From assembly GCF_006345805.1 (NCBI RefSeq), contig NW_021833128.1:1-29435 (forward strand): a stretch of 29,435 nucleotides of DNA, given 5' to 3'. Shown one piece after another: positions 1 to 3,822 of the stretch (positions are counted from its first letter, which is position 1; every line of letters starts with the position of its first letter). Position numbers: made by a program. The DNA is from Octopus sinensis. Taxonomy: Eukaryota.

Positions 1-3000
1 AACTGATTCTGAATACATCATAAATAACCAACCTTATGTAGCGAAGACGAACAACAACTGTTCACTCGGCCAAGGCCAACATGGAATGTTTATAAATCAT
101 TATCCGGTAAATGGCGGGCTTTTTACGAACTGCATGTCGGGTAATGAAAAGTATTTCGGAATAAGTTTAACAATTAAGGATAATCTCTTAATAAGGGATC
201 TTAACAAGAAATTATCGGGTAGCTAGCGTGAAAACCTCATAAAGAAAAGAATCCGAAAATAATTTTTTCCTTTTGAACAAATTAATTATATCTATATTGT
301 ATAAAGGGCATTATTACACATAAATGCCTCACACTAGAGGGACAAAGTCATTACTACCAAAATTATACTAATCATACCCAAATGCAGTTTCTTCAAAGCA
401 AGACATTTAAAAATGAATTATGTTCTGTATCACCGTGATTTCACATACAACTTGCGTCTAATGATCGTCAGCAGAACTGATTCTGAATACATCATAAATA
501 AACCAACCTTATGTAGCGAAGACGAACAGACAACTGTTCACTCCGGCCAAGCACATGGAATGTTTTTATAATCATATATCCGGTAAATGGCGGGCTTTTT
601 ACGAACTGCATGTCGGGTAATGAAAAGTATTTCGGAATAAGTTTAACAATAAGGATAATCTCTTAATAAGGGATCTTAACAAGAAATTATCGGGTAGCTA
701 GCGTGAAAACCTCATAAAAGAAAAGAATCCGAAAATAATTTTTTTCTTTTGAACAAATTAATTATATCTATATTGTATAAAGGGCATTATTACACATAAA
801 TGCCTCACACTAGGAGGGACAAGTCATTACTACCAAAAATTATACTAATCATACCCAAATGCAGTTCTTCAAAGCAAGACATTTAAAAATGAATTATGTT
901 CTGTATCACCGTGATTTCACATACAACTTGCGTCTAATGATCGTCAGCAGAACTGATTCTGAATACACATCATAAATAAACCAACCTTATGTAGCGAAGA
1001 CGAACAGACAACTGTTCACTCCGGCCAAGCACATGGAATGTTATAAATCATATATCCGGTAAATGGCGGGCTTTTTACGAACTGCATGTCGGGTAGAAAG
1101 TATTTCGGAATAAGTTTAACAATTAAGGATAATCTCTTAATAAGGGATCTTAACAAGAAATTATCGGGTAGCTAGCGTGAAAACCTCATAAAAGAAAAGA
1201 ATCCGAAAATAATTTTTTCTTTTGAACAAATTAATATATCTATATTGTATAAGGGCATTATTACACATAAATGCCTCACACTAGGAGGGACAAAGTCATT
1301 ACTACCAAAAATATACTAATCATACCCAAATGCAGTTTTTTCAAAGCAAGACATTTAAAAATGAATTATGTTCTGTATCACCGTGATTTCACATACAACT
1401 TGCGTCTAATGATCGTCAGCAGAAACTGATTCTGAATACATCATAAATAAACCAACCTTATGTAGCGAAGACGAACAGACAACTGTTCACTCCGGCCAAG
1501 CACATGGAATGTTTATAAATCATATATCCGGTAAATGGCGGGCTTTTTACGAACTGCATGTCGGGTAATGAAAAGTATTTCGGAATAAGTTTAACAATTA
1601 AGGATAATCTCTTAATAAGGGATCTTAACAAGAAATTATCGGGTAGCTAGCGTGAAAACCTCATAAAAGAAAAGAATCCGAAAATAATTTTTTTCTTTTG
1701 AACAAATTAATTATATCTATATTGTATAAGGGCATTATTACACATAAATGCCTCACACTAGGAGGGACAAGTCATTACTACAACCAAATTATACTAATCA
1801 TACCCAAATGCAGTTTTTCAAAGCAAGACATTTAAAATGAATTATGTTCTGTATCACCGTGATTTCACATACAACTTGCGTCTAATGATCGTCAGCAGAA
1901 CTGATTCTGAATACATCATAAATAAACCAACCTTATGTAGCGAAGACGAACAGACAACTGTTCACTCCGGCCAAGCACATGGAATGTTTATAAATCATAT
2001 ATCCGGTAAATGGCGGGCTTTTTACGAACTGCATGTCGGGTAATGAAAAGTATTTCGGAATAAGTTTAACAATTAAGGATAATCTCTTAATAAGGGATCT
2101 TAACAAGAAATTATCGGGTAGCTAGCGTGAAAACCTCATAAAAGAAAAGATCCGAAAATAATTTTTTTCTTTTGAACAAATTAATTATATCTATATTGTA
2201 TAAAGGGCATTATTACACATAAATGCCTCACACTAGGAGGGACAAAGTCATTACTACCAAAAATTATACTAATCATACCCAAATGCAGTTTTTCAAAGCA
2301 AGACATTTAAAAATGAATTATGTTCTGTATCACCGTGATTTCACATACAACTTGCGTCTAATGATCGTCAGCAGAACTGATTCTGAATACTCATAATAAA
2401 TAAACCAACCTTATGTAGCGAAGACGAACAGACAACTGTTCACTCCGGCCAAGCACATGGAATGTTTATAAATCATATATCCGGTAAATGGCGGGCTTTT
2501 TAACGAACTGCATGTCGGGTAATGAAAAGTATTTCGGAATAAGTTTAACAATTAAGGATAATCTCTTAATAAGGGATCTTAACAAGAAATTATCGGGTAG
2601 CTAGCGTGAAAACCTCATAAAAGAAAAGAATCCGAAAATAATTTTTTTTTGAACAAATTAATTATATCTATTTGTATAAAGGGCATTATTACACATAAAT
2701 GCCTCACACTAGGAGGGACAAAGTCATTACTACCAAAATTATACTAATCATACCCAAATGCAGTTCTTTCAAAGCAAAACATTTAAAAATGAATTATGTT
2801 CTGTATCACCGTGATTTCACATACAACTTGCGTCTAATGATCGTCAGCAGAACTGATTCTGAATACATCATAAATAACCAACCTTATGTAGCGAAGACGA
2901 ACAGACAACTGTTCACTCCGGCCAAGCACATGGAATGTTTATAAATCATATATCCGGTAAATGGCGGGCTTTTTACGAACTGCATGTCGGGTAATGAAAA

Positions 3001-3822
3001 GTATTTCGGAATAAGTTTAACAATTAAGGATAATCTCTTAATAAGGGATCTTAACAAGAAATTATCGGTAGCTAGCGTGAAAACCTCATAAAGAAAAAAA
3101 TCCGAAATAATTTTTTTCTTTGGAACAAATTAATTATATCTATATTGTATAAAGGGCATTATTACACATAAATGCCTCACACTAGGAGGGACAAAGTCAT
3201 TACTACCAAAAATTATACTAATCATACCAAATGCAGTTCTTCAAAGCAAGACTTTAAAATGAATTATGTTCTGTATCACCGTGATTTCACATACAACTGT
3301 GCGTCTAATGATCGTCAGCAGAACTGATTCTGAATACATCATAAATAAACCAACCTTATGTAGCGAAGACGAACGACAACTGTTCACTCCGCCCAAGCAC
3401 ATGGAATGTTTATAAATCATATATCCGGTAAATGGCGGGCTTTATAACGAACTGCATGTCGGGTAATGAAAATATTTCGGAATAAGTTAACAATTAAGGA
3501 TAATCTCTTAATAAGGGATCTTAACAAGAAATTATCGGGTGAGCTAGCGTGAAAACCTCATAAAAGAAAAGAATCCGAAAATAATTTTTCCTTTTGAACA
3601 AATTATTATATCTATATTGTATAAAGGGCATTATTATTACACATAAATGCCTCACACTAGGAGGGACAAAGTCATTACTAACCCAAAAATTATACTAATC
3701 ATTTGGGTATGATTAGTATATTTTTGGTAGTAATGACTTTGTCCCTCCTAGTGTGAGGCATTTATGTGTAATAATGCCCTTTATACATATTTATATATAT
3801 ATAATATAATATATATACCTAC

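What the first reader, a model, noticed from the sequence alone, without database searches (positions are those of the whole stretch)
1..3702. Tandem ~475-bp array with one hammerhead ribozyme per unit: candidate retrozyme / circular-RNA-producing element
Seen: seven complete minus-strand type I hammerheads (422, 898, 1370, 1846, 2322, 2798, 3268), spaced one unit apart, and no meaningful ORF. Established: tandem minimal type I hammerheads occur in Penelope-like retroelement pLTRs and in animal non-LTR retrozymes, whose multimeric transcripts self-cleave to monomers that circularise. Inference: this apparent satellite is a non-coding retrozyme family yielding a ~475-nt monomer or circRNA, probably mobilised by a PLE reverse transcriptase. 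I cannot tell from sequence alone whether this family has been described.
Basis: partly seen in the sequence, partly recalled or inferred. Interest (0 to 1): 0.92.

Follow-up and report, generated by a model that had tools for sequence, protein, structure and literature searches.

The report
Tandem repeat carrying hammerhead-like ribozyme motif
A 476-base non-coding repeat at the edge of this animal-like window carries one atypical hammerhead ribozyme motif per copy, so it is most likely one more family of the known "retrozyme" repeats that make small circular RNAs.

Summary
Positions 1-3702 are a 476-bp tandem array of 7.8 copies at 96% match. All seven descend from one unit, so they count as one independent observation.

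The motif has the full catalytic core:
- CUGACGA, GAA, A15.1-U16.1 and A17
- a perfect 6-bp helix I
- a small palindromic helix III
- a long helix II with a GCAA loop

It is atypical in two ways. Helix II opens with a U-U mismatch instead of G-C. Rfam Hammerhead_1 scores 14.4 bits against a cut-off of 34.

Supporting evidence:
- A descriptor loose enough to accept it hit 2 times in 60 Mb of random sequence.
- Two copies co-fold, unconstrained, into a double hammerhead.
- The minus-strand monomer is more structured than the plus strand (z -5.8 against -3.4).

No PLE gene was found in the window. Cleavage, transcription, circles and the PLE link are all inferred.

Verdict: probably a new family of the known non-LTR retrozyme or hammerhead-satellite kind, of modest interest.

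The parts
1..3702 (-). Tandem array of a 476-bp non-coding unit, 7.8 copies, cut by the window start. The functional strand is taken to be minus.
   Evidence: TRF. Monomer alignment. G+C 0.33-0.34. No ORF of 90 aa or more.
422..477 (-). Hammerhead-like motif, copy 1. On the minus strand it reads GUUCUG (helix I), CUGACGA, helix II (U.U, CAU/AUG, internal loop UA/GU, GAC/GUU, loop GCAA), GAA, helix III (AUCA-CGG-UGAU), A17, then the cut, then CAGAAC. The predicted cut is between + 428 and + 427.
   Evidence: Sequence. Descriptor. Exact 50-mer. Rfam Hammerhead_1 at 422..477, 14.4 bits. Hammerhead fold -9.4 against MFE -10.6 kcal/mol.
898..953 (-). Hammerhead-like motif, copy 2; its 50-mer is identical to copy 1. 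Cut between 904 and 903.
1370..1426 (-). Hammerhead-like motif, copy 3. An extra T in the 5' strand of helix I leaves 5 contiguous pairs. Cut between 1376 and 1375.
1846..1901 (-). Hammerhead-like motif, copy 4. Cut between 1852 and 1851.
2322..2377 (-). Hammerhead-like motif, copy 5. Cut between 2328 and 2327.
2798..2853 (-). Hammerhead-like motif, copy 6. Cut between 2804 and 2803.
3268..3324 (-). Hammerhead-like motif, copy 7. A 1-nt insertion changes loop 2 from GCAA to GCACA. Cut between 3274 and 3273.
   Evidence: It is not among the 6 exact or 3-mismatch matches because of the insertion.
3633..3775 (.). Foldback at the inner end of the array. The last partial unit (to about 3702) is followed by its own reverse complement: arms 3633-3699 and 3709-3775, 67 nt, 88% complementary, 9 nt apart. 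A (TA)n tract follows.
   Evidence: The below-threshold miRNA-precursor 'hits' at 3639-3769 simply reflect this hairpin.

Best explanation
The array is a family of hammerhead-bearing tandem repeats of the animal non-LTR retrozyme or hammerhead-satellite kind.

Proposed mechanism (every step here is inferred):
1. The minus strand is transcribed as a multimer.
2. Each unit folds a type I hammerhead within 56 nt. Its helix III is short and palindromic, so cleavage is expected mainly through a double hammerhead formed by two units. Cleavage falls after A17 and releases 476-nt monomers.
3. A host RNA ligase may circularise the monomers into a highly paired branched rod.
4. Such RNAs may be copied back into DNA in trans by a retroelement reverse transcriptase. 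Published work points to Penelope-like elements.

Shown here: the array, the motif with a complete core, the predicted folds, and the strand asymmetry in folding.

Inferred: transcription, cleavage, circularisation and retro-mobilisation.
For: - Complete core at canonical positions: C3-U4-G5-A6-C7-G8-A9, G12-A13-A14, A15.1-U16.1, A17, with G2.1 and C1.1. CUGAcGA is also the consensus of the Rfam type I model (alignment).
- Helix I has 6 perfect pairs, then an internal loop (AUA/CA), then 4 more pairs in the monomer MFE. Helix II has 4 positions and then an internal loop. Helix III is small and palindromic. This matches the '6 bp helix I, 4 bp helix II, short palindromic helix III' described for metazoan type I hammerheads (PMC4209133, passages).
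- A U10.1-U11.1 start of helix II is reported in natural hammerheads and as the best tolerated mismatch (PMC3088659, passage). PLE-type hammerheads have a larger helix II with an unpaired base at its 5' end.
- The relaxed descriptor gave 2 hits in 60 Mb of random sequence, about 1.6e-5 per 476-nt strand. It gave 0 hits in the remaining 25.7 kb of the window on either strand.
- The hammerhead fold is 1.2 kcal/mol above the MFE of the 63-nt segment. Two segments co-fold without constraints into a double hammerhead, -32.3 against 2 x -10.6 kcal/mol.
- The minus-strand monomer has z -5.8 linear and -5.05 circular with 68% of bases paired and 17 G-U pairs. The plus strand has z -3.36 and -2.96 circular with 55% paired.
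- Unit length, low G+C and tandem layout lie within published ranges: 150-450 bp repeats with G+C below 50%, and consensus lengths of 51-972 bp.
- Variant alignment columns number 2 of 58 in the motif against 62 of 435 elsewhere, Fisher p 0.02. This is weak evidence; see evidence against.
Against: - Rfam: 0 matches at gathering, and no hammerhead family among 16 matches at E<=10 over 3.9 kb. With 91 nt given, Hammerhead_1 scored 14.4 bits against a cut-off of 34, E 0.46. That alignment covers only helix I and CUGACGA and skips helices II and III.
- The most conserved helix II pair is a U-U mismatch, and helix II is A/U-rich with an internal loop.
- In the 63-nt ensemble, helix III pairs have probability 0.05-0.08 and proximal helix II 0.39-0.42. 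The segment folds no better than its shuffles (z 0.22).
- The seven motifs are one observation. The copies are near-identical, and 58 of the 82 differences from consensus are single-base indels, which look like read errors. The array therefore carries no usable covariation, and the p 0.02 is confounded.
- My descriptor was written after seeing the motif. At its random rate, a genome of a few Gb would hold on the order of a hundred chance hits.
- No PLE RT or GIY-YIG was found: 0 of 20 ORFs had a Pfam match. There is no other copy of the unit in the window.
- No transcript data and no related genome could be consulted.
Confidence: 0.62

Rival explanations
1. An ordinary satellite DNA whose unit holds a hammerhead look-alike that is not catalytic. 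The look-alike is either a chance match or a decayed relic of a ribozyme, and the array expanded by DNA-level mechanisms such as unequal exchange or replication slippage.
For: - It is far below the Rfam threshold.
- It has a U-U mismatch at 10.1/11.1 and a weak helix II.
- Helix III is barely populated in the monomer ensemble, and the 63-nt segment is no more stable than its shuffles.
- There is only one independent observation and no covariation.
- The array sits next to microsatellite-rich DNA and ends in a foldback, as DNA-level rearrangements do.
Against: - The chance rate is about 1.6e-5 per unit strand, and the core is complete.
- The helix geometry is canonical, and a double hammerhead is the unconstrained co-fold MFE.
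- The motif lies on the strand whose monomer RNA is the more structured.
- U-U at 10.1/11.1 is a documented tolerated variant.
Confidence: 0.28
2. The units are tandemised terminal repeats (pLTRs) of a Penelope-like element, meaning fragments of an autonomous element rather than a separate non-autonomous retrozyme family.
For: - PLE pLTRs carry type I hammerheads with a large helix II, an unpaired base at its 5' end and a small palindromic helix III (PMC4209133, passages).
- Retrozymes and pLTRs are reported as sister sequences in Xenopus.
Against: - No RT or GIY-YIG ORF was found next to the array or anywhere in the window: 0 of 20 ORFs had a Pfam match. The longest ORF of normal composition is 169 aa.
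- 7.8 head-to-tail units without an intervening ORF is the retrozyme layout, not the pLTR-ORF-pLTR layout.
Confidence: 0.07
3. The array, or its copy number and foldback end, is an assembly artefact of noisy long reads at a contig end.
For: - The window begins inside the array.
- 58 of 82 differences between copies are 1-nt indels.
- There is a palindromic junction at 3633-3775.
Against: - An artefact could alter the copy number or create the foldback, but it cannot invent a 476-bp unit repeated in register with shared substitutions.
- The unit sequence, and therefore the motif, would still be real.
Confidence: 0.03

Closest known systems
Animal non-LTR retrozymes (coral Acropora millepora, mussel Mytilus galloprovincialis, axolotl; Cervera and de la Pena 2020, PMC7229834)
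   Same: - Head-to-tail repeats of a few hundred bp, each with one type I hammerhead.
- G+C below 50%.
- No LTR and no coding capacity.
- The monomer RNA is predicted to be highly self-paired.
- Dimeric action is expected where helix III is short.
(Results part 1, compared.)
   Different: - The unit is 476 bp, against the 170-400 nt RNAs and 150-450 bp repeats quoted there. It is inside the 51-972 bp range of the 2026 preprint.
- Helix II starts with U-U and is long with an internal loop.
- The Rfam type I model does not recognise it.
- Expression and circles are unknown here.
pDo500 satellite of Dolichopoda cave crickets (PMC2837043)
   Same: A satellite family with a hammerhead in each unit, proposed to act as a double hammerhead. 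Compensatory changes at 10.1/11.1 and a U-U pair in a stem are reported within the family (passages). The unit size of about 500 bp is recalled from the family's name and was not checked.
   Different: - No sequence comparison was possible, because no pDo500 sequence was available to any tool.
- pDo500 has comparative support across species, which is missing here.
Minimal hammerheads of Penelope-like element pLTRs (PMC4209133)
   Same: - A larger helix II.
- An unpaired base at the 5' end of helix II.
- A small palindromic helix III.
- Expected to act as dimers, with low activity in vitro.
(Passages.)
   Different: - Here helix I is a full 6 bp (4-5 bp in those) and helix III has 4 pairs.
- No PLE ORF is nearby.
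Natural hammerheads with a U10.1-U11.1 start of helix II (Perreault et al. 2011, PMC3088659)
   Same: The same departure from the consensus at the most conserved helix II pair. The paper says it is tolerated better than other mismatches (passage).
   Different: I read only the passage, not the figure, so I do not know in which organisms or hammerhead types those examples occur.

Membership tests
Hammerhead ribozyme, type I | Conserved core: C3 U4 G5 A6 N7 G8 A9, G12 A13 A14, A15.1-U16.1, and H17 not G. | tested here: met
   All are present in 7 of 7 copies.
Hammerhead ribozyme, type I | Three helices around the core, with helices II and III closed by short loops and helix I open. | tested here: met
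   Helix I has 6 bp, helix II 3+3 bp with a GCAA loop, helix III 4 bp with a 3-nt loop. The fold is 1.2 kcal/mol above the MFE. Helix I has probability 0.86-0.97, but helix III only 0.05-0.08 in the monomer.
Hammerhead ribozyme, type I | G10.1-C11.1 pair closing helix II (quasi-invariant). | tested here: not met
   It is U-U in all 7 copies. A natural precedent is described in PMC3088659.
Hammerhead ribozyme, type I | Rfam RF00163 gathering score. | tested here: not met
   14.4 bits against 34. It was absent.
Hammerhead ribozyme, type I | Covariation or conservation among independent relatives. | tested here: inconclusive
   Only near-identical copies of one array were available. Variant columns are 2 of 58 in the motif against 62 of 435 elsewhere, confounded by indel noise. 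No eukaryotic collection was available.
Hammerhead ribozyme, type I | Site-specific self-cleavage. | not testable with these tools
   This needs in vitro transcription of monomer and dimer.
Animal non-LTR retrozyme | Tandem units of tens to hundreds of bp, each with one type I hammerhead. | tested here: met
   7.8 units of 476 bp with one motif each. This rests on accepting the motif as a hammerhead.
Animal non-LTR retrozyme | Low G+C and no coding capacity. LTR, PBS and PPT are also absent in the family. | tested here: met
   G+C is 0.33-0.34, and there is no ORF of 90 aa or more. PBS and PPT were not searched for specifically.
Animal non-LTR retrozyme | Monomer RNA predicted to be stable and highly self-paired. 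| tested here: met
   z is -5.8 linear and -5.05 circular, with 68% of bases paired.
Animal non-LTR retrozyme | Expressed as linear and circular RNA of unit length. | not testable with these tools
   No transcriptome was available.
Animal non-LTR retrozyme | Target-site duplications, dispersed copies and co-occurrence with PLEs in the genome. | not testable with these tools
   The left end is outside the window and the right end is a foldback. There is no other copy in the window and no genome to search.
Penelope-like element (pLTR) | Repeats flank an ORF with a reverse transcriptase and a GIY-YIG endonuclease. | tested here: not met
   0 of 20 ORFs scanned had a Pfam match at E<=0.01 or E<=0.1. 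Those 20 came from 94 ORFs of 55 aa or more with normal composition; the other 74 were not scanned.

The most novel reading that the evidence does not exclude
The motif is an active hammerhead variant that current models miss. It would have U10.1-U11.1, an internal loop in helix II at the position where canonical type I ribozymes carry loop 2, and obligate double-hammerhead action. It would define a retrozyme lineage with a 476-nt circle in an animal group where none has been catalogued. The foldback at the array end would then be a footprint of template switching during rolling-circle reverse transcription.
Probability: 0.2. Interest if true: 0.5.

Novelty: new member of a known kind. Interest (0 to 1): 0.33.

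Why it matters
If the motif cleaves, this adds a retrozyme family whose ribozyme escapes the standard Rfam model. That would mean covariance-model surveys undercount such elements, and it would give a natural test case for the U10.1-U11.1 and long helix II variant. It would not change the picture of how these elements work. If the motif does not cleave, this is an ordinary satellite.

Tried and rejected
- Rfam at gathering on the whole window gave 0 matches.
- Rfam at E<=10 on 1-3900 gave 16 matches, none a ribozyme. The miRNA-precursor rows, all below threshold, are the foldback at 3639-3769. The snoRNA rows have E of 0.25 and 8.4 and I treat them as chance.
- I looked for other self-cleaving classes on either strand; none appeared.
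- I looked for copies of the unit elsewhere in the window. There were only short hits, E 0.035 or worse.
- ARAGORN found 0 tRNA genes.
- The Atlas search on the ORF at 21087-21410 returned unnamed eukaryotic clusters (best 0.96; commonest Chordata and Mollusca on very few members). It does not identify the host.
- A literature search for an 18-nt string of the motif (DNA, RNA and reverse complement) found 0 papers. This only shows the string is not printed in the searchable text.
- A scan of genome contigs (prokaryotes only) for the motif pattern gave 0 matches, as expected for an animal-like sequence.
- Within-array conservation gave p 0.02, but I reject it as evidence of selection. The copies are not independent, and most differences look like read errors.

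Not checked:
- Any eukaryotic genome, repeat library (Repbase, Dfam) or transcriptome.
- The search for homologous proteins, the search of protein representatives, metagenome contigs and viral contigs, which were closed.
- Supplementary files, which were closed. The supplementary figures of PMC7229834 and PMC4209133 that draw the hammerhead families may show whether this variant is already described.

The host organism was not determined.
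Full report
**What is there**

The window opens inside a tandem array that runs to 3702. The period is 476 bp, with 7.8 copies, 96% matches and 2% indels. G+C is 0.33-0.34. No stop-to-stop ORF of 90 aa or more overlaps the array.

I cut the minus strand at the predicted cleavage sites. This gave six full monomers of 470, 476, 476, 476, 472 and 476 nt, plus two partial ones. The copies differ from their consensus at 82 positions, and 58 of those are single-base indels, mostly in homopolymer runs. 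I read these mainly as long-read noise. The copies are therefore effectively identical and carry no evolutionary signal.

**The motif**

On the minus strand every unit reads as follows:
- GUUCUG (helix I, 5' strand)
- CUGACGA (core)
- U CAU UA GAC GCAA GUU GU AUG U (helix II)
- GAA (core)
- AUCA CGG UGAU (helix III)
- A17, followed by the cut
- CAGAAC (helix I, 3' strand)

Six copies share an identical 50-mer at 422, 898, 1370, 1846, 2322 and 2798. The seventh (3268-3318) has one extra base in loop 2. Helices II and III are closed by short loops and helix I by the rest of the unit, so the topology is type I.

**How good a hammerhead is it**

Points in favour:
- Every invariant core nucleotide is present, with A15.1-U16.1, A17, G2.1 and C1.1.
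- Helix I is 6 perfect pairs. In the monomer MFE it continues after an AUA/CA internal loop with 4 more pairs.
- Helix II has four positions before an internal loop. Helix III is short and palindromic.
- This is the geometry given for metazoan type I hammerheads: helix I 6 bp, helix II 4 bp, short helix III with a palindromic loop, acting as dimers (PMC4209133, passages).
- The hammerhead fold of the 63-nt segment is -9.4 kcal/mol against an MFE of -10.6. Two segments co-fold without any constraint into a double hammerhead at -32.3 kcal/mol. In that structure helix III is an intermolecular 5+5-bp duplex around a G-G mismatch.

Points against:
- Helix II opens with U10.1-U11.1 instead of G-C, and it is A/U-rich.
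- Helix III pairs have probability 0.05-0.08 in the monomer ensemble.
- The segment is no more stable than its shuffles, z 0.22.
- Rfam finds nothing at gathering and no hammerhead at E<=10 on 3.9 kb.
- With only 91 nt supplied, Hammerhead_1 appears at 422..477 on the minus strand with 14.4 bits against a cut-off of 34. The alignment keeps helix I and CUGACGA and skips the rest.

The U-U departure has precedent. Perreault et al. report natural hammerheads whose stem II starts with U10.1-U11.1 and note that this mismatch supports more activity than other mispairs (PMC3088659, passage). PLE-type hammerheads have a larger helix II with an unpaired base at its 5' end.

**Chance**

I wrote a descriptor loose enough to accept this motif. 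It requires:
- CUGANGA
- 8-40 nt forming at least 3 pairs, with one opening mismatch allowed
- GAAA
- a helix III hairpin of at least 3 pairs ending in U
- H17
- at least 5 helix I pairs

It hits the 7 array copies and nothing else on either strand of the window. It hit 2 times in 60 Mb of first-order Markov sequence trained on the unit (both strands) and on the window. That is about 1.6e-5 per 476-nt strand and 0.002-0.006 per window. It also implies on the order of a hundred chance hits in a genome of a few Gb, and the descriptor was written after the fact. The case therefore rests on the coincidence of such a motif with a tandem unit of retrozyme size, not on the count of seven.

**The rest of the unit**

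The minus-strand monomer folds at -126.5 kcal/mol against -94.7 for shuffles, z -5.8. As a circle it folds at -121.0, z -5.05, with 68% of bases paired and 17 G-U pairs. The plus strand gives z -3.36 and -2.96 with 55% paired. The strand with the motif is thus also the better-folding strand. This is what retrozyme circles look like (PMC7229834, Results part 1), but it is a one-in-two coincidence on its own.

**Surroundings**

The array ends in a foldback: arms 3633-3699 and 3709-3775, 88% complementary. A microsatellite-dense, A/T-rich landscape follows (48 TRF rows), with dispersed repeats and short transposon-like ORF fragments.

I found no PLE reverse transcriptase or GIY-YIG endonuclease. 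0 of 20 ORFs scanned had a Pfam match. Those 20 were chosen from 94 ORFs of 55 aa or more with normal composition. The longest is 169 aa, so an intact PLE is not present. There is no other copy of the unit in the window and there are no tRNA genes. The sequence is animal-like. The one Atlas search returned only unnamed eukaryotic clusters, and I did not determine the host.

**Comparison with what is known**

Hammerhead-bearing tandem repeats are an established class: newt satellite 2, Schistosoma, the pDo500 satellite of cave crickets, and the animal non-LTR retrozymes. The retrozymes are expressed as 170-400-nt linear and circular RNAs and are thought to be circularised by a tRNA ligase (PMC7229834, abstract and Results part 1). 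A 2026 preprint reports consensus lengths of 51-972 bp. It says 75% of families have at most seven repeat units, and it finds co-occurrence and sequence relatedness with PLE pLTRs (bioRxiv 10.64898/2026.07.22.740005, abstract and Results part 1).

The present array meets the structural criteria of this class that I could test. It fails the Rfam score and the G10.1-C11.1 criterion for a textbook hammerhead. It works like a retrozyme on paper. Membership depends on the activity and comparative tests that I could not run.

**Verdict**

- Best reading: a new family of a known kind, confidence about 0.6.
- Main rival: a plain satellite with an inactive look-alike or relic, about 0.3.
- Interest is modest at 0.33. 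The only unusual aspect is a ribozyme variant that standard models miss.

No eukaryotic genome, repeat library or transcriptome could be searched. A text search for the motif string found no paper. A scan of prokaryotic genomes found nothing.

Noticed in passing
window 3633-3775: The array does not end cleanly. Its last partial unit is followed by about 70 nt of its own reverse complement (arms 67 nt, 88% complementary, 9 nt apart), then a (TA)n tract. This could be a real inverted junction, a template-switch footprint, or a long-read foldback artefact. It produces spurious miRNA-precursor hits below threshold in Rfam.
   Followed up: partly
window 3782-29000: Microsatellite density is very high. 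47 of the 48 TRF rows lie outside the array and include long (TA)n, (GTA)n, (TTA)n, (AAT)n, (AGT)n, (ATAC)n and (TG)n tracts. This is typical of some invertebrate genomes. The host was not determined.
   Followed up: no
window 20481-20773 and 27242-27535; 9505-9701 and 25497-25691; 4877-5099 and 5592-5816; 12164-12325 and 27081-27240: There are several families of dispersed 100-300-bp repeats at 85-91% identity, some inverted. They look like SINE-type or other short interspersed elements. ARAGORN finds no tRNA-like gene.
   Followed up: partly
window 21087-21410 (+), 16754-16981 (+), 23051-23326 (+): These are short ORF fragments. The first resembles unnamed eukaryotic protein clusters in the Atlas (score 0.96). 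From memory it looks like the C-terminal tail of a retrotransposon ORF, and the second looks like a weaker copy of the same tail. The third resembles a Tc1/mariner transposase fragment, also from memory. None has a Pfam match.
   Followed up: partly
window 1-3702: 58 of the 82 differences between array copies and their consensus are single-base indels, mostly in homopolymer runs. This suggests an unpolished long-read assembly. The true identity between copies is probably higher than 96%.
   Followed up: partly
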